Source: Candidatus Methylomirabilales bacterium (GTDB taxonomy: Bacteria > Methylomirabilota > Methylomirabilia > Methylomirabilales > CSP1-5). Taken from it: a stretch of 45,470 nt of DNA. The stretch spans positions 1 through 45,470 of the forward strand of contig JBHIAH010000016.1 of assembly GCA_046758505.1 (NCBI GenBank). The letters run 5' to 3'. Shown here piece by piece: positions 39,001 through 45,000 of this stretch (position 1 is the first letter of the stretch; each line of letters opens with the position of its first letter). A program made the position numbers.

Positions 39001-42000
39001 ACGCGCACAACAGACCGCAGATTTACGGAGGAAGACATGCGGGTACCTTTGGCGTTCCTGTTCGCGTGGGCGCTCGCCCTCGCAGGTTGCGTCGGCCCTG
39101 TGGCGCTCCACGAGGCGGTACTGGGGTATGACGAAACCATCAGCCGCTTGGAAAGTGAGCTGCTGCTCCTCAACATCGCCCGCGCCCACCACAACCTGCC
39201 GGACCATTTCACCGTGACATCGGCCATCGCGGCGACCTTTGACTACCGGGCCAACGTCGGCTTCGTGGGAAACTTCGTTAATGCGGGCGGCGACTCCTAT
39301 AGTTTCACGCTCGGGGCAAGCGTTGCGGAGAACCCTACGCTCAGCATCGTCCCCGTCCAAGGGGAGGAGTTCACCAAGCGCATCTTGAGTCCGATGGATG
39401 AGGGGAAGTTCGAGTTCCTGGTTTTCCAGGGTGCGCCCCTCGACATGGTCCTCCGCCTCATGGCGGATGGGATCGAGTTGCAGAATCGCAACGGGGCCTT
39501 TGAGCGGTTCATCCTGAACTGGCCAACGGCCCCCAAGGAATACGAAGAGTTTCGCCGGCGGGCTCTCCATCTCCGTTGGCTCAATCGCACCCGAAACCTT
39601 TTCGTCGGACCGGTCACCTTCGAGGAGGCGATCCGGGCGAAACTCCCGGTGCCACCCTCGGCCGGCGAGCTGGTCCAGGCCCTCGAGCGGGGGTATCGCT
39701 GGCGACGGCTCGGTGCGGAGACCGAGTACGAGCTCAGCAAGACCGTGACGGGCCGCGTCGCCGTGACCAACTATGACCCGCGCATGCTCAGCAACGCTGA
39801 GCGTCGGGCACTGAACGCTCGCGCCGCCGCAAACCCACCGAATTTCGTCCTCGTGGATATTCGCCCGGGCTACCCGGGCGGGGACTTTCCCTTATCCGGG
39901 GCGATCAAGCTCCGAAGCCTCAACGTCATCCTCGCCTTTGTGGCCGGCGGAATTGGGCGGAGTCGGGAGTATGATGTGGGGAAAGATCCACGCACCGAGA
40001 CAGTTGGCCGGAATCCAGCGCGGGCCCTGGCGGTCGAGGTGAGCGACATCCCGCCGGCGGACACGATGCTGCGCACCGCGTACGCGGGACAATACTACTG
40101 GGTCCCGAATACCCCGTGGGACCGTGAGGCTTTCGTCCTGCTCTCCAAGCTTTTCCAGATGACCGTGACGGATGTCTCCAGGGTCGGGGTTCCCGTCACG
40201 ATCAGCAAGTAGGCGTCGGCGACTTTATCTCCCCCCTGACTCGGACTCGGGCAGAGGTTTCGAGCCCCGGCAGGTGTATAGGTGGCGAGATATCTCGGGC
40301 TGCCCGGCGGTGGCTGCCCTCTTCAGGATCTGGCCCGTGGCCGGCAATGTGCATCAAAGGCAATCCCTCTGGGGTTAGTCTTCCCGCAGAAGGTTCTCGA
40401 CCGCCTGGCGGAAGACCGGGAAGGGATGGGCGCCACTGATCAAGACCCCTTGAATCGTATTGTCCGATCTCGTTTTTCCCAGGAAAAAACCGGGAGTTCC
40501 TCGGATCCCAGCGGCTAACCCCTCCTCGAGGTTCTGTTGGACCTCGGCAGCGTGTGTGCCGTTCTTCAGGCAGGCATCAAAGGCTGTCGAATCCAAATCG
40601 AGCCTGCGCGCATATGCCTTGAGGTGCTCGACTTGCAGGGCCCGCTGATTTTGGAAGAGCAGGTCATGCATGTCCCAGTATCTGCCCTGATCTCCAGCAC
40701 AATGGGCCGCTTCGGCCGCTTTGCGCGCATGCGGGTGAATCCGATCGAGGGGGAAGTCCCGAAAGACGTAGCGGACCTTCCCCGTGTTGATGTATTCCGC
40801 CTTGAGGGCGGGGAGTGTGTCCCGGAAAAACCTCCCGCAGAAGGGACACTGATAATCCGAAAACTCGATCATGGTGATCGGCGCGTCCTTTTTCCCCGCG
40901 GTGGGATGGTCGGAGGTCCTCACCGTGGCCACGACGCGGGACGGTTGGTTTGGCCGGCGGCCGCGCTGTGAGAGGAGTTGCCGAATGAGCGTGAGCTCTT
41001 TTCGAACCACCCTCAGCTCGCTCTTGATTTTTTCAAGGTCAGCCTTGAGGGTTTCCAGCTCCGATGGGGGTGCTGGCTCTGACTGCGCGAAGGCTGTTGC
41101 CACCCCCTGCCGCATGTTGCCGGCCGCAATCATGGCCGGCAACAGAACTGCGATGAAAAAGACCCGGCGTATCGGCTTCATCCACACCCCCTTTCTCGCG
41201 GTTGGCTGCTCGGAGGTCCCGCATGCATGGGGGAACCCGTTACGGTCAAGGCCTTAGCCTGAAGGGAATGGCGACGGATTCGGAGAGGCCGGCGGAAGTC
41301 CAGGGCCGTCCCTCCCAATACATGCTCCATCCGGGCGGAGGACGAAGCGGGGAAGCCTCCCTGTGCAGGGAGCATCCCCACCTCACCGGGCTTCCCCGGA
41401 GGAGCCGGCTCCTTTTCGGTGTGCCGTTGCGTGTCCCGGAGGCGGGCGAGGGGCGCCCGCGGTCCTCTTTCCATTCCTGCCTCCCCTGAGTGGGGGTTCA
41501 GTATGCCCCGATGCCCAACCGGTGTCAAGGGACCCTGCGCTGTCGCTGGTGAACTTCCGTGGGATGATCCATACGCGGATGTCAGGGATGACGCACTGGT
41601 GACGTTTTTGGAGGTGCGCGGAAGCGGGACGCCGCGACTGGCAGCATATTTGCATAGAGTCCCACCCGTTCACGGGCAGTCGGCGTGCCGGGAGAAACCC
41701 AAAATCCAAGGCAGGGAGGCCTTCTGTCTCTCCTGCCCATGCCCTTCGGGGGCCAGGCGTGGTCGGGCTATGATGAGGGCACATCGCAAACGAGGTGTGG
41801 ATAGGAACCTCCAGGACCGGAAGCCTCCGCGCTTTCGCATTTCCGGTGTCACAGCGGCCGTTACAACGCTCCAGGAGGCGGAGGTGCTGGATCTGAGCCT
41901 GGAGGGGGCGCTCGTGGAGCACCAAGGCGTGCTCCCATTGGGGAGTCCGTGCTTCCTCCAGCTGGGGACAGGCGGGGAAAGGTTGACCCTCCGGTGTCAA

Positions 42001-45000
42001 GTGGTACACAGCCGGGTGAGCCGGAGCGAGGTTGGCGGTGCCCTCTTCTATCAGACGGGGCTGGAATTCCTGGAGCTCTCCCGCCGGGCGGAAGAATCCC
42101 TCGGGGCTTTCATTCGCTCGTACGGGGCTGCTGAGGGGTAGGGCGGCTTTCCAGGCATTTTTGGTGACTTGGCATGTTTCATGCTCATTTGTTTAGGTTG
42201 GCCAACTCACAATGCCGGTTTCCGGCTCTACGGGCGGTGCGCCCACATTAATCCTGGGCCGAACCGGTCTGGTGGATCCGCGTGCAACCGGCACGCATGA
42301 CCGGGGCGTTCTCGTGAGAAGAAAGAGAAAACGGCGGAAAAGGCGGTCAGAACCGCGGGCTGTTCCGCGAGAGGAGACCCCCGTGCGGCTCAGCGCCGAG
42401 CAGGAGGCGTCCCTCTTGGACGGTGAAGTTGCAACCCGGCGGCAATACGCCCGATTCGCCGTGGAGGGAAGAACCAAGGGACGGGTCATTGCCGTCTGCG
42501 ACGCGCTGATCCTCGACATCAGCATTGGGGGTTCTCTGATTGAGCATTCCCACGTGGTCCGGCCAGGTACCATCTCTTCCCTGGACCTTGACCTGCTGGG
42601 GAAGCGGGTGAGCGTCAGGTGCCGCGTGGCCCGTTCGATCGTCCACCGGTCGGAGGTGCAGCCCGATGGAGAGCGGGAGTTAATTTTCCACACCGGGCTC
42701 GAATTTCTCGAAACCTCTGATGAGACGCGCGGCCTGATCGGCGAGTACATTCAATCGATTGTCTGTGACGGGAGGAAACCTCAACAGGTACTTCCCGCGG
42801 CGTCCGATGAGCCCGATGCCCACGGTATCTCTGAGGATGCAAGGTAGGCAATCCCGATAAGGACCCCAGGGCTCACGCCATACTGTTCACCTCCCACCTT
42901 CTCGATAACCCGTGACACGGCCACGCAGCCGGCAATGCTGTCGATCGGATGGGTGATTCGGGCCGTGTAACGCATTGAAAGAAAATTAGTTTACCAGCGT
43001 GTTGGGTGTGGAAAAACGCTTCGCCATGCCGGCCCCCCCCGAACGCGCCGTAAGGCAGGCGACCACGATTTCAATAACGGTTGCAGGGAGAACTGACCAC
43101 CCTCCGTCGTTCTACGGGAAAGCGCGTACCACGCAAAAATCCCTTGTAAAAGCGGGGGTTTGTGCGTTATACAGGGGGACGGGGGATAGCTGGCGGAGGC
43201 GTGTGGGAATCGAACCCACCGGCCCGCTTTTGGCGGGCCCACCGGTTTTGAAGACCGGGAGAGCCACCAGGCCCAATCCGCCTCCGTGTCAGCTCAAGAC
43301 ACCTTCAGTGTAGCAATCGCCGCCCCGCCTCCGCAAGCCTCTTCGGGGTAGAGGAGTACCGGACAGGGGTGGCGACTGCAATTTCTGGCAGCCGGAGAGG
43401 GCACCAATGGCGGGTCTGCGCGAGGAACGACGGCCGCGCGTCTTGGTGGTGGATGATCAAGAGGAAAACTTGGACCTCCTGGAGGCTTTTCTCGGTGTCC
43501 ACGACTTCGAGGTCGTCCGGGCCAGAGACGGTCAGGAGGCCCTGGCGGAAGTGGGCCACGACGCGCCTGACCTGATCCTCCTCGATACGCACATGCCCTC
43601 ACCCGACGGCTTTCAAGTCTGCAGGCAGCTCAAGCAAGATGAGGCGACCCGCCTGATCCCGATCATCATCCTGACGACCGCCGGAGAACTGGAGAGCCGG
43701 GTCCGCGGGATCGAGGCCGGGGCCGATGATTTCCTGACGAAACCCGTGCATCGGGTGGAGCTGGATGCCCGGGTTCGATCCCTCCTCCGACTCAAGCAGT
43801 TCACCGACGAACTCGAAAACGTCGAGACGGTTCTGGTCAGTTTAGCCCTGGCCGTCGAGGCCAAGGATCCTTCAACCCATGGGCACTGCGAACGGCTGGC
43901 GGATTACGCCGTACAGCTCGGGCAGCGGCTCAGCCTCCCCTCAGAGCTTCTGACGGCCCTCCGTCGCGCGGGGTATATGCATGATCTCGGCAAAATCTCT
44001 GTCCCCGAGGCCATCCTCCTCAAGTCCGGTCCCCTCACGCCCGAGGAGTGGCAGGTCATGCGGCTCCACCCGGTGGTCGGCGAGCGGATCTGCCAGCCCC
44101 TGCGATCGTTACGGCTGGTCCTCCCCATCATTCGCCACCACCACGAGCGGTGGGATGGCAGTGGGTATCCGGACGGTCTTGCAAGAGAGGCGATCCCTCT
44201 CACCGCCAGGATCCTGCAGATCGTGGACGTGTTCGATGCCCTGGTCGTGGACCGACCCTACCGGCGCGGCCTCTCCCCAGCCGCGGCCACCAAGATTCTC
44301 CAGGAGGAAGCCGGTCGTGGGTGGTACGACCCCAAGGTAGTGGCCGAATTTCTCGCGCTGCTCACGAGCGGGGGGGGGTCTTTCAAGACGGGGTCAACGG
44401 CCCTGGTGCGGTAGCAGGGCCTCCTCAGGGAGGAGGGCGATCTCCGGTATTTCGTCTACGCTGCTGATAAACTTGAATTCGAGGCCCTGCCGGACCTCTT
44501 CCGGCGTATCTTCCAGATCTTTTGCATTCCGTTGGGGGAGAAGGACCCCCCTGAGGCCAGCCCGCTTGGCCGCCAGCGTCTTTTCCTTGATTCCGCCCAC
44601 CTGCAGGATCTGCCCCCGGAGAGTGATCTCCCCCGTCATTGCAATCCCACCCTGGACAGGCCGTCCCGTCACCAGGGAGAGGAGGGCCGTATACATGGTG
44701 ATCCCGGCGGACGGCCCGTCCTTGGGGATGGCTGCTGCGGGGACATGGATGTGGATGTCCTGTTTGAGGAAGAAATCTTCGGGGAGGCCCAGCTCCCGCG
44801 ACCGACTCCGGACGGCGCTCAAGGCCGCCTCTGCAGACTCTTTCATCACCGCCCCCAAATGCCCGGTCAGGATGAGATTCCCCTTTCCGGGCATCTTCGT
44901 GGCCTCCACGAAGATGATCTCGCCTCCGGTGGGCGTCCAGGCAAGCCCGATGGCTACCCCCGGTTGAGAGGTCCGTTCGGCCACCTCCGAGAAGAACTTG

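What a model noticed while it worked through the whole genome (the two positions that open the first line are those of the whole stretch)
41884..44414. Genus-wide burst of PilZ c-di-GMP receptors (37 proteins) against only three GGDEF cyclases
This 3.0-Mb genome encodes 37 PilZ-domain proteins (44 domains, 34 with both c-di-GMP-binding motifs), among them eight receiver-PilZ fusions, but only 3 GGDEF, no EAL and 5 HD-GYP proteins; the stretch given holds two single-domain PilZ genes next to a receiver-HD-GYP phosphodiesterase. I read it as a signalling design of few writers and very many readers, in which one global c-di-GMP pool is decoded by dozens of small adaptor proteins and, through REC-PilZ proteins, is merged with two-component phosphorylation. 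New would be the most receptor-heavy c-di-GMP network described for a small genome and an expansion that arose within one genus.
Evidence so far: pfam.tsv: PilZ on 37 genes, GGDEF on 3 (g00367, g01443, g01866), EAL 0, HD_5 5, DUF4388 4, MshEN 3. Motif scan of the 44 PilZ domains: RxxxR in 39, [DN]xSxxG in 37, both in 34. REC-PilZ: g00061, g00207, g00898, g02085, g02143, g02280, g02529, g02902; cyclase-PilZ g01614. Six-frame PF07238 matches at E<=1e-5 in genomes at least 97% complete: this genus 37, 60, 37, 27 (4 of 4 genomes); Methylomirabilis 0-3 (6 genomes); 14 genomes of the Rokubacteriales side, 2.4-6.0 Mb, 1-12; one further genome 0. Five papers hold both 'PilZ' and 'Methylomirabil*', 4 were listed, none deals with this (titles and abstracts seen; call 129).
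(Added by a program. Inside this text positions count along the whole contig: contig position 1 is position 1 of the stretch shown here. "Call 12" and the like, gene names such as g00115 and contig names such as C1 are that model's own, and its searches are not shown. The text may have been shortened before it was handed on; [...] marks where a part breaks off. The agent that wrote the report below was given it as the finding of a first reader that could run no searches.)

Follow-up and report, generated by a model that had tools for sequence, protein, structure and literature searches.

The report
Many PilZ receptors, few c-di-GMP cyclases
This uncultured, non-methane-oxidising relative of Methylomirabilis has about 37 genes for small c-di-GMP-binding PilZ proteins but only three enzymes that make the signal, an extreme yet not unique case of a known "few writers, many readers" layout, built by repeated gene duplication in several related lineages.

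Summary
The stretch carries two stand-alone PilZ genes, a tRNA-SeC and a receiver-HD-GYP gene. Genome-wide I reproduced 37 PilZ genes above Pfam's cut-off, 8 of them receiver-PilZ and 1 cyclase-PilZ. I also reproduced 3 intact GGDEF, 0 EAL, 5 HD-GYP, 3 MshEN and 4 DUF4388.

- All 13 other genomes of the genus are PilZ-rich (11-61 domain matches), but so are the sister genus (34) and two other families of the order. One 3.7-Mb genome there has about 37 PilZ reading frames.
- Only the pmoA-bearing genus is poor, with 0-3.
- Cyclases (1-9) and HD-GYP (1-11) stay low across the order.
- Paralogue identities and a domain tree show lineage-specific duplication of about six subfamilies here and a separate, tandem-PilZ expansion elsewhere.
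- An unrelated 3.2-Mb genome has 63 PilZ matches, so the density is not unique.
- The PilZ:GGDEF ratio (12:1 here, 3.5-15:1 in the genus) exceeded all 61 genomes sampled in that other phylum, where the maximum was 3.7.

Verdict: a real, extreme member of the Bdellovibrio-type receptor-heavy c-di-GMP network. Binding and outputs are untested.

The parts
41770..42141 (+). PilZ1, a stand-alone single-domain PilZ gene of about 123 aa.
   Evidence: PF07238 E 2e-8, above the cut-off. RKPPR and DLSLEG motifs are read from the translation. Orthologues at 67-81% identity, aligned from the ATG at 41770, are present in 10 of 11 genus loci. Start codons were read.
42212..42847 (+). PilZ2, a stand-alone single-domain PilZ gene of at most 211 aa. 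The true start is uncertain, because orthologues align only from about residue 50-60.
   Evidence: PF07238 E 2.5e-6, 28.2 bits. RQYAR and DISIGG motifs. The best in-genome paralogue is 66% identical. Genus orthologues are 61-74% identical.
43191..43285 (-). tRNA-SeC (anticodon TCA) between PilZ2 and the HD-GYP gene.
   Evidence: ARAGORN. The same tRNA, at 96-98% identity and in the same position, occurs in 7 of 11 genus loci.
43407..44414 (+). Receiver-HD-GYP response regulator (RpfG-type phosphodiesterase, 335 aa).
   Evidence: Response_reg 3e-28 and HD_5 8.9e-44. HD (MHDLGK) and GYP (GSGYPDG) motifs. Receiver DD, D, T and K residues are seen in the alignment. The HD-GYP part is nearest to PDB 5z7c, 4mcw and 4r8z. 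An orthologue (78-85% identity) follows PilZ2 in 6 of the 8 genus loci that reach far enough.
964..1665 (-). Two-domain PilZ gene of 233 aa: a divergent N-terminal PilZ-like domain plus a canonical PilZ.
   Evidence: PF07238 8e-27 in two stretches. Only the C-terminal domain has both motifs.
15787..16611 (+). Tandem PilZ-PilZ gene of 274 aa. Both domains carry both motifs.
   Evidence: PF07238 1.3e-18 in two stretches. Motifs RQHPR/NVSRGG and RTSIR/NLSDGG.
15020..15724 (+). Receiver-only response-regulator gene directly upstream of the tandem PilZ gene.
   Evidence: Response_reg 2.4e-17.

Best explanation
The stretch is an ordinary piece of a c-di-GMP network: two small stand-alone PilZ receptors and an RpfG-type receiver-HD-GYP phosphodiesterase. 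It sits in a genome with an unusually receptor-heavy network.

Inputs. Three sensory diguanylate cyclases have intact active sites: dCache-HAMP-GGDEF, REC-4xGAF-GGDEF and REC-GGDEF. Five HD-GYP enzymes carry REC, HAMP-GAF or GAF-GAF inputs. There is no EAL. Together these set the c-di-GMP level.

Readers. About 37-41 PilZ proteins read that level. The surplus arose by duplication of about six PilZ subfamilies: single-domain PilZ (about 13 copies), REC-PilZ (two groups, 8 copies), xPilZ-PilZ (6-7), PilZ-PilZ (3) and two small groups. These duplications belong to the family that holds this genus and its sister genus. The copies are scattered over the chromosome as orphan genes.

Relatives. Other families of the order expanded PilZ independently, mainly as tandem PilZ-PilZ proteins. 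The methanotrophic genus kept 0-3. Cyclase and phosphodiesterase numbers stayed low everywhere.

Inferred, not shown: the paralogues act as protein-binding adaptors with different targets and probably different affinities, so that one or a few c-di-GMP pools fan out to many outputs. The REC-PilZ proteins would combine phosphorylation with c-di-GMP binding, as PixA of Myxococcus does.
For: - Domain calls and counts.
- Intact catalytic motifs: GGEEF/GGDEF in 3 of 3 cyclases, an RxxD I-site in 2 of 3, and HD plus GYP in 5 of 5 HD-GYP proteins.
- Binding motifs are both present in 36 of 51 PilZ domains.
- Paralogy against G017: 34 of 41 PilZ ORFs have an in-genome paralogue at 48-66% identity over about the full length. 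37 of 41 score higher against that paralogue than against any of 23 PilZ ORFs of G017, which belongs to another family. 12 single-domain copies share one G017 best hit.
- Tree of 82 domains: 15 changes of the genome label against 18-32 in 1000 shuffles, none of which reached 15. G000-only clades hold 13, 6, 5, 5, 3, 3, 3, 3 and 2 members, with SH-aLRT of 97-100 except 61 for the largest.
- Single-domain subfamily, matches per genome: 5-23 in the genus, 8 in the sister genus, 1-3 in g5, 1-11 in g6, and 0 in each of 8 g8 genomes.
- Full-length REC-PilZ in the listed rows: 6 and 12 in two genus genomes, 4 in the sister genus, and at most one distant copy (28-40% identity) per genome in g5 and g6.
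- Turnover enzymes are few across the order: GGDEF 1-9, HD_5 1-11, and EAL in 5 of 41 genomes.
- The genes are scattered: 41 ORFs on 31 contigs, with no recurrent neighbour among 123 flanking ORFs.
- Receivers of REC-PilZ keep the phospho-Asp in 7 of 8.
Against: - No binding, expression or phenotype data exist. No RNA run holds the locus.
- 15 of 51 PilZ-like domains lack one or both motifs, so some copies cannot bind c-di-GMP in the canonical way.
- The largest G000-only clade has weak support (SH-aLRT 61), and trees built on domains of about 100 aa are fragile.
- Only one outgroup genome (G017) was compared protein by protein, and one of its PilZ frames was not fetched.
- Inside the genus, orthologues (61-81% identity) are as diverged as paralogues (48-66%), so the timing of duplications relative to the genus is coarse.
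- Counts in the other genomes are six-frame domain matches. They exceed gene counts where tandem PilZ is common: G017 has 33 matches for about 23 ORFs, and G026 has 52 matches for about 37 frames.
- The HD-GYP domain's nearest solved relative is a cGAMP-specific enzyme, so the ligand may not be c-di-GMP alone.
Confidence: 0.7

Rival explanations
1. One reading: a burst confined to one genus, producing the most receptor-heavy c-di-GMP network of any small genome, with one global pool read by dozens of adaptors.
For: - All 13 other genus genomes have 11-61 PilZ matches with only 2-7 GGDEF.
- Four genus genomes reach 56-61 matches. G006 has about 57 distinct frames against 4 GGDEF.
- The single-domain and REC-PilZ subfamilies are much larger in this genus than in g5 or g6.
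- No paper holding both 'PilZ' and 'Methylomirabil*' or 'NC10' treats this, judged from titles and abstracts of the listed hits.
Against: - The sister genus has 34 matches in a 74%-complete genome.
- G017 (g5) has 33 matches for about 23 ORFs, and G026 (g6) has 52 matches for about 37 frames. G037 (g6) has 41 matches.
- The window's PilZ pair is syntenic across the genus, so it is older than the genus.
- G181, in an unrelated phylum, has 63 matches in 3.2 Mb.
- 'One global pool' has no sequence evidence for or against it.
Confidence: 0.12
2. Many of the extra PilZ proteins do not read c-di-GMP. They would be ligand-independent scaffolds (as the eponymous PilZ is), or they would read another nucleotide such as 3'3'-cGAMP or a product of the two class III cyclases. 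In that case the cyclase-to-receptor ratio is misleading.
For: - 15 of 51 PilZ-like domains lack a motif, among them the N-terminal domains of 7 two-domain proteins.
- One PilZ is fused to a CHASE2-class III cyclase.
- The window's HD-GYP is closest to the cGAMP-specific V-cGAP3, PDB 5z7c, at E 1.7e-37.
- Non-binding PilZ scaffolds are documented (PMC10333796, passages read; bioRxiv 10.1101/814665, passages read).
Against: - 36 of 51 domains keep both canonical motifs in order, including both window genes and, by that in-order test, 7 of the 8 REC-PilZ; the eighth (C114) carries each motif separately.
- All three GGDEF domains carry the canonical GG[DE]EF.
- PilZ binding of other nucleotides is not established, to my recollection.
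Confidence: 0.15
3. An artefact: the counts are inflated by metagenome binning, contamination or collapsed and duplicated contigs.
For: The genome is a 149-contig draft. One PilZ is a fragment on a 2.6-kb contig, C138.
Against: - Contamination is 1.55%.
- The paralogues are 48-66% identical, not near-identical copies.
- They lie on 31 contigs beside ordinary housekeeping genes.
- The same surplus is seen in 13 of 13 independently assembled genus genomes.
Confidence: 0.02

Closest known systems
Bdellovibrio bacteriovorus HD100 c-di-GMP network (15 PilZ, 5 GGDEF, 1 EAL, 6 HD-GYP in 3.8 Mb; PMC3271064, passages read)
   Same: A small genome in which PilZ receptors outnumber the enzymes and HD-GYP dominates over EAL. 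The paper itself calls the low number of cyclases and phosphodiesterases 'peculiar'.
   Different: The ratio is 37:3 here (12:1), and up to about 57 frames to 4 in G006, against 3:1 there. The phylum differs. There are eight REC-PilZ paralogues. No experiments exist. Here all three GGDEF domains look catalytic.
Myxococcus xanthus PilZ set (24 PilZ proteins, 14 of them single-domain; PixA is PilZ plus receiver and binds c-di-GMP; PMC8316039, passages read)
   Same: Many stand-alone PilZ adaptors, plus PilZ fused to a receiver domain that keeps its phospho-acceptor Asp.
   Different: That genome is about three times larger (size recalled, not from a call). Here the receiver is N-terminal. In PixA the phospho-Asp is residue 180, which implies a C-terminal receiver; that is my inference. 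Here REC-PilZ is an 8-member family rather than a single gene.
RpfG-type receiver-HD-GYP phosphodiesterases; solved HD-GYP relatives are PmGH (4mcw), PA4781 (4r8z) and V-cGAP3 (5z7c). The RpfG name is recalled.
   Same: The window gene 43407-44414 has the same REC plus HD-GYP architecture, with HD and GYP motifs.
   Different: Nothing notable at sequence level. The substrate (c-di-GMP or cGAMP) is not determined.
Lineage-specific PilZ subfamily expansions and PilZ-PilZ dimers described by Galperin and Chou (bioRxiv 10.1101/814665, passages read)
   Same: Tandem PilZ-PilZ proteins are listed there for 'candidate division NC10'. REC-PilZ fusions are a known architecture. Cellulolytic clostridia with 9 and 11 PilZN7-PilZ genes show that subfamilies can expand.
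   Different: In the passages I read, that paper gives no genome-wide receptor-to-enzyme ratios for this phylum. Here several subfamilies expanded together, to 37-57 genes.
G181, reached through locus L130, whose record title reads 'MAG: Deltaproteobacteria bacterium isolate bin63 chromosome'
   Same: A 3.2-Mb genome with 63 PilZ matches, mostly in small separate frames. This is a PilZ density equal to or above that of this genus.
   Different: It has 17 GGDEF matches, a ratio of 3.7:1. It is an outlier in its own phylum, where 60 other genomes have 0-28.

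Membership tests
PilZ domain (PF07238), canonical c-di-GMP-binding type | Profile match above Pfam's gathering score | tested here: met
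   PilZ1 scores 34.9 bits and PilZ2 28.2 bits against a cut-off of 22.5. 37 of 41 genome candidates are above the cut-off.
PilZ domain (PF07238), canonical c-di-GMP-binding type | RxxxR motif before the barrel and [D/N]xSxxG motif about 20-30 residues later | tested here: met
   Both window genes have both motifs. Genome-wide, 36 of 51 domains have both in order, 43 have RxxxR and 39 have [DN]xSxxG.
PilZ domain (PF07238), canonical c-di-GMP-binding type | Six-stranded beta-barrel with a C-terminal helix | not tested
   No structure was predicted. PilZ2 has no sequence hit in the PDB at E<=0.01.
PilZ domain (PF07238), canonical c-di-GMP-binding type | Binds c-di-GMP | not testable with these tools
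   Needs DRaCALA, ITC or a comparable assay.
HD-GYP phosphodiesterase (RpfG type) | HD_5/HD profile match with HD and GYP motifs | tested here: met
   HD_5 8.9e-44. MHDLGK and GSGYPDG in the window gene; HD plus GYP in 5 of 5 genome copies.
HD-GYP phosphodiesterase (RpfG type) | N-terminal receiver with an acidic pocket, phospho-Asp, Thr and Lys | tested here: met
   VVDDQ, LLDTHMP, LTTAG and TKPV are seen in the alignment. Response_reg 3e-28.
HD-GYP phosphodiesterase (RpfG type) | Hydrolyses c-di-GMP | not testable with these tools
   The nearest solved relatives include both c-di-GMP enzymes (4mcw, 4r8z) and a cGAMP-specific one (5z7c).
Diguanylate cyclase (GGDEF) | PF00990 match with an intact GG[DE]EF; I-site RxxD optional | tested here: met
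   3 of 3 have GGEEF or GGDEF, and 2 of 3 have RxxD five residues upstream.
Receptor-heavy (Bdellovibrio-type) c-di-GMP network | PilZ genes outnumber GGDEF + EAL + HD-GYP genes, and HD-GYP exceeds EAL | tested here: met
   37 PilZ against 3 + 0 + 5.
Receptor-heavy (Bdellovibrio-type) c-di-GMP network | Individual cyclases drive separate outputs through particular receptors | not testable with these tools
   Needs genetics. No cyclase-PilZ gene pairing was seen among the 123 neighbours.
PixA-type PilZ-receiver response regulator | PilZ and receiver in one protein, with the phospho-acceptor Asp kept | tested here: met
   There are 8 REC-PilZ proteins. The Asp is kept in 7 of 8, and C114 has Gly there. 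All 8 carry both PilZ motifs, and 7 of the 8 pass the in-order spacing test.
PixA-type PilZ-receiver response regulator | Same domain order as PixA (PilZ first, receiver second; inferred from phospho-Asp180 in PMC8316039) | tested here: not met
   Here the receiver is N-terminal and PilZ C-terminal in 8 of 8. The proteins work like PixA at best; they are not orthologues.

The most novel reading that the evidence does not exclude
This order of the NC10/Methylomirabilota phylum is a natural experiment in which a second-messenger network grew only on the receptor side. PilZ gene numbers run from 0 to about 57 per genome through repeated, independent duplications of different PilZ subfamilies in at least three families. 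Cyclases (1-9) and HD-GYP enzymes (1-11) stayed constant, and EAL is almost absent. The family that holds this genome would then carry the highest PilZ:GGDEF ratios (about 10-15:1) of any bacterial lineage, together with a unique 8- to 12-member REC-PilZ family that couples phosphorelays to c-di-GMP.
Probability: 0.3. Interest if true: 0.6.

Novelty: new member of a known kind. Interest (0 to 1): 0.4.

Why it matters
In most studied bacteria the enzymes that make and break c-di-GMP outnumber the known receptors (PMC8316039, introduction). How specificity arises is therefore usually discussed from the enzyme side. These genomes have three cyclases and dozens of receptors. They would be simple on the input side and rich on the output side, which makes them useful for asking how receptor affinity and partner choice alone can diversify a signal, and how receiver-PilZ proteins merge phosphorylation with c-di-GMP. 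The contrast with the PilZ-poor methanotrophic sister genus also hints at a link with lifestyle. The organisms are uncultured and everything beyond domain content is inference, so the value for now is as a comparative-genomics lead.

Tried and rejected
- c-di-GMP riboswitches. RF01051 and RF01786 gave no match in G000. For RF01051 the control rang in none of the 14 control genomes, so that blank says little.
- Expression. No RNA holder is listed for window 41400-44420. I did not lay reads.
- PDB sequence search with PilZ2: no hit at E<=0.01.
- A common operon partner. Pfam on 123 of the 127 flanking ORFs found no recurrent partner. The four left out were window ORFs, three of them already scanned. 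Seen were 4 OmpA-containing ORFs, 3 CBS-CBS-BON, 2 REC-PAS, 1 REC and 1 DUF4388. No flagellar, pilus, cellulose-synthase or chemotaxis family was hit.
- The idea that the locus PilZ1-PilZ2-tRNA-SeC-HD-GYP is fixed in the genus. The HD-GYP gene is missing downstream in 2 of the 8 loci that reach far enough, G006 and G012.
- Literature. The journal version of Galperin and Chou 2020 is not held, so I read passages of its bioRxiv version instead.
- Earlier notes of this scan. A word search and a genome search returned nothing bearing on this finding.
I obtained genome handles first.
- Calibrating the six-frame count on Bdellovibrio or Myxococcus themselves was not possible, because no handle to those genomes was available. 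The comparison with them rests on published gene counts.

Full report
WHAT IS AT THE COORDINATES. The stretch 41884-44414 holds four features.
- PilZ1. Its longest ORF is 41419-42141 (+), with the PilZ domain at residues 133-233 (PF07238 E 2e-8).
- PilZ2, 42212-42847 (+) (PF07238 E 2.5e-6).
- A tRNA-SeC at 43191-43285 (-).
- A receiver-HD-GYP gene at 43407-44414 (+) (Response_reg 3e-28, HD_5 8.9e-44). It has HD and GYP motifs and a complete receiver pocket.

Both PilZ proteins carry RxxxR and [D/N]xSxxG. Orthologues in 10 of 11 genus loci conserve the protein from the ATG at 41770 (67-81% identity over about 123 aa), so the longer form, which includes the RxxxR motif, is the likely gene. The flanks are a DsbA-like thioredoxin gene and the 3' part of lon. 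The window holds two more PilZ genes, at 964-1665 (-) and 15787-16611 (+).

GENOME CENSUS.
- Six-frame PF07238 gives 38 matches at E<=1e-3 and 37 at 1e-5. That screen missed the window's PilZ2.
- I extracted all ORFs of 50 aa or more, built an HMM from the matched domains and searched the ORFs. This gave 41 candidate ORFs with 51 PilZ-like domains.
- Pfam placed 37 of the 41 above the gathering score, 3 just below it and 1 without a PilZ hit.
- Architectures among the 37: 8 REC-PilZ and 1 CHASE2-Guanylate_cyc-PilZ. Eight show two Pfam PilZ stretches (ten by my HMM). The rest are single PilZ, with or without an unassigned N-terminal part.
- Both binding motifs, in order, are present in 36 of 51 domains.
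- There are 3 GGDEF proteins (dCache-HAMP-GGDEF, REC-4xGAF-GGDEF, REC-GGDEF). All have GG[DE]EF, and 2 have an RxxD I-site.
- No EAL was found.
- There are 5 HD-GYP proteins, all with HD and GYP motifs.
- There are 2 class III cyclase domains, one of them fused to PilZ, 3 MshEN and 4 DUF4388.
- No c-di-GMP riboswitch was detected, with a weak control for RF01051.

WHERE THE SURPLUS OCCURS. Lon of the window is 85-87% identical to records titled candidate division NC10 or Methylomirabilales. I searched 41 genomes of the order with PF07238 at E<=1e-5.
- The genus: 13 of 13 other genomes have 11-61 matches. Those at least 97% complete have 37, 27, 60 and 26, besides G000 with 37.
- The sister genus: 34 matches in a 74%-complete, 1.7-Mb genome.
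- Genus g5, of another family: 11-33.
- Genus g6, of a third family: 5-52.
- Three small genera: 0-8.
- Genus g8: 0-3 in 8 genomes.

Only g8 carries pmoA, in 6 of 8 genomes. None of the 33 other genomes does. The PilZ-poor genus is therefore the methanotrophic one, presumably Methylomirabilis; the name is not shown by the tool. Outside the order, 108 genomes of one family have 0-12 and 15 of another have 0-2 (scoring in that call was capped at 26 per genome).

The turnover enzymes do not follow PilZ numbers. GGDEF is 1-9 in all 41 genomes, HD_5 is 1-11, and EAL was found in 5 of 41, mostly as one GGDEF-EAL protein.

Domain matches overstate gene numbers where tandem PilZ is common. G017 (g5) has 33 matches for about 23 ORFs, 13 of them two-domain. 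G026 (g6) has 52 matches in about 37 distinct frames, 15 of them two-domain. G006, of this genus, has 60 matches in about 57 frames (counted by hand from the listed rows). G000 has 39 matches in 36 ORFs. At gene level a genome of another family (G026, 3.7 Mb) therefore equals G000. The claim that the expansion is confined to one genus fails.

Counts for G007 and G021, and for G153, G059 and G154, come from unpublished genomes. No conclusion depends on them.

HOW THE SURPLUS AROSE.
- Paralogue identities. BLASTP shows that 34 of 41 G000 PilZ ORFs have an in-genome paralogue at 48-66% identity over roughly their whole length. 37 of 41 score higher against that paralogue than against any of the 23 G017 PilZ ORFs. 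12 single-domain copies all have the same 138-aa G017 protein as best hit. Four ORFs are the exceptions. One G017 frame was not fetched.
- Domain tree. A maximum-likelihood tree of 82 domains (49 from G000, 33 from G017; LG+G4, quick search) needs 15 changes of the genome label. In 1000 shuffles the range was 18-32 with a mean of 26, and none reached 15.
- Clades. G000-only clades hold 13 single-domain PilZ (SH-aLRT 61), 6 and 5 members for the two domains of the xPilZ-PilZ group (97, 97), 5 and 3 REC-PilZ (100, 99), 3 plus 3 for the PilZ-PilZ group (99, 99), and 3 and 2 others (97, 98). G017 has its own clades of tandem-type domains.
- Single-domain subfamily. A search with PilZ2 counts 5-23 matches per genome in the genus (12 in G000), 8 in the sister genus, 1-3 in g5, 1-11 in g6 and 0 in each of 8 g8 genomes.
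- REC-PilZ. Full-length relatives number 6 and 12 in two genus genomes and 4 in the sister genus. There is one at 62% identity in a g7 genome. There is a single distant copy (36-40%) in 5 of 6 g5 genomes, and one (28-30%) in two g6 genomes. None appears for g8. All this is within the 150 of 1299 rows that were listed.
- Synteny. The window's PilZ1-PilZ2 pair is adjacent in 10 of 11 genus loci; the eleventh is cut by a contig end. The HD-GYP gene follows in 6 of the 8 loci that reach far enough, but not in G006 or G012.

The pair therefore predates the genus. Because orthologues within the genus (61-81% identity) are as diverged as paralogues, most duplications are old, at or before the radiation of the family. 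Further growth to about 57 genes occurred in a subgroup of four genomes. The best summary is parallel, lineage-specific expansion of different PilZ subfamilies in at least three families of the order.

GENOMIC CONTEXT. The 41 ORFs lie on 31 contigs, and only three pairs are neighbours. Of 127 flanking ORFs (two on each side), 123 were scanned; three of the four omitted window ORFs had been scanned. They are mostly metabolic or housekeeping genes. Recurrent neighbours are 4 OmpA-containing ORFs, 3 CBS-CBS-BON proteins, 2 REC-PAS, 1 receiver-only gene and 1 DUF4388. No flagellar, pilus, cellulose-synthase or chemotaxis family was hit. The PilZ genes thus look like dispersed orphan adaptors and give no hint of their targets.

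COMPARISON WITH WHAT IS KNOWN.
- Bdellovibrio bacteriovorus HD100 (3.8 Mb) has 15 PilZ, 5 GGDEF, 1 EAL and 6 HD-GYP. The authors call the low enzyme number peculiar (PMC3271064, passages).
- Myxococcus xanthus has 24 PilZ proteins, 14 of them single-domain. Its PixA (PilZ plus receiver) binds c-di-GMP. The same paper notes that cyclases and phosphodiesterases typically outnumber known effectors (PMC8316039, passages).
- Galperin and Chou list PilZ-PilZ proteins from candidate division NC10, name REC-PilZ as a known fusion, and mention subfamily expansions of 9 and 11 genes in clostridia (bioRxiv 10.1101/814665, passages).
- Searches for 'PilZ' with 'Methylomirabil*' (5 papers, 4 listed) and with 'NC10' (14 papers, 8 listed) gave nothing on this network by title and abstract, apart from that one sentence.

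All parts, and the layout as such, are therefore known.

HOW EXTREME IT IS.
- I reached five genomes of other phyla through Lon loci. Their PilZ/GGDEF matches are 13/29 (Geomonas), 6/8 (Nitrospirales), 14/10, 63/17 (G181, 3.2 Mb), and 0 PilZ in a Binatia genome, for which GGDEF was not searched.
- In G181's phylum, 60 further genomes at least 90% complete have 0-28 PilZ matches.
- No genome of the 61 there exceeds a PilZ:GGDEF ratio of 3.7.
- In this genus the ratio is 3.5-15, and 12.3 in G000.

The PilZ density of this genus is thus matched elsewhere. Its ratio to cyclases was not matched in what I sampled, which is a small part of bacterial diversity.

MECHANISM.
- Shown: domain content, intact catalytic and binding motifs, paralogy, distribution and scatter of the genes.
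- Inferred from established knowledge of these families: three sensory cyclases and five HD-GYP enzymes set c-di-GMP, and PilZ proteins bind it and act on partner proteins.
- Inferred more loosely: paralogues differ in affinity and target, so that one or a few pools fan out into many outputs. The REC-PilZ proteins, 7 of 8 with phospho-Asp, would integrate two-component signals.
- Open: whether the pool is global or local.

The main rival is that a good share of the copies are ligand-independent scaffolds or read another nucleotide. In its favour, 15 of 51 domains lack a motif, one PilZ is fused to a class III cyclase, and the window's HD-GYP is nearest to a cGAMP-specific enzyme.

VERDICT. This is a new and extreme member of a known kind of network, in a phylum where it had not been described. 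Interest is moderate.

Noticed in passing
window 43191-43285 (-): A tRNA-SeC gene sits between PilZ2 and the receiver-HD-GYP gene. It is kept in the same place, at 96-98% identity, in 7 of 11 genus loci. The selenoprotein machinery of the genome was not examined.
   Followed up: partly
G000:C27:25500-27566 (L001:3001-5067, +): A 688-aa CHASE2 - class III nucleotide cyclase - PilZ fusion whose PilZ has both motifs (the best PilZ score in the genome). This suggests c-di-GMP control of cAMP/cGMP synthesis.
   Followed up: no
G000:C96:6795-7400 and 7400-8098 (L019:2396-3001 and 3001-3699, +): A DUF4388 gene ends where a two-domain PilZ gene begins, so stop and start overlap. This looks like a translationally coupled pair. 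It is also the one PilZ ORF that is closer to a g5 protein (49.8% identity) than to any in-genome paralogue.
   Followed up: no
window 38399-38719 (+): One of the genome's four DUF4388 matches lies in the window, about 3 kb upstream of PilZ1.
   Followed up: no
G181 (reached through L130): An unrelated 3.2-Mb chromosome-level genome, whose record title reads 'Deltaproteobacteria bacterium isolate bin63', has 63 PilZ matches, mostly in small separate frames, and 17 GGDEF. It is an outlier in its own phylum, where 60 other genomes have 0-28. It may deserve a finding of its own.
   Followed up: partly
G000:C1:132699-133391, C28:17570-18511, C46:12187-13056: Three CBS-CBS-BON proteins each lie next to a PilZ or REC-PilZ gene. 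Four OmpA-containing ORFs (three OmpA-like proteins and one DUF748-OmpA protein) also flank PilZ genes. This may be chance; it was not tested against the genome-wide frequency.
   Followed up: no
G019:C11:31044-31766: A g7 genome (5% contamination) carries one REC-PilZ that is 62% identical over its full length to the G000 protein. That is closer than any copy in the sister genus (48-57%). Gene transfer or a binning error are both possible.
   Followed up: no
window 2-766 (-) and 2627-3721 (+): Two different fructose-1,6-bisphosphatase types (FBPase_3 and GlpX) flank the PilZ gene at 964-1665 and an OmpA-like gene.
   Followed up: no
relatives G020-G040 (genus g8): pmoA (PF02461) was found only in the PilZ-poor genus, in 6 of 8 genomes, and in none of the 33 other genomes of the order that were searched. 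G000 itself has none. This genome is therefore probably not a methanotroph.
   Followed up: partly
G000:C114:205-990 (L028, -): One REC-PilZ paralogue has lost the phospho-acceptor Asp (Gly in its place) and the conserved Lys, but keeps both PilZ motifs. It is a pseudo-receiver variant.
   Followed up: no
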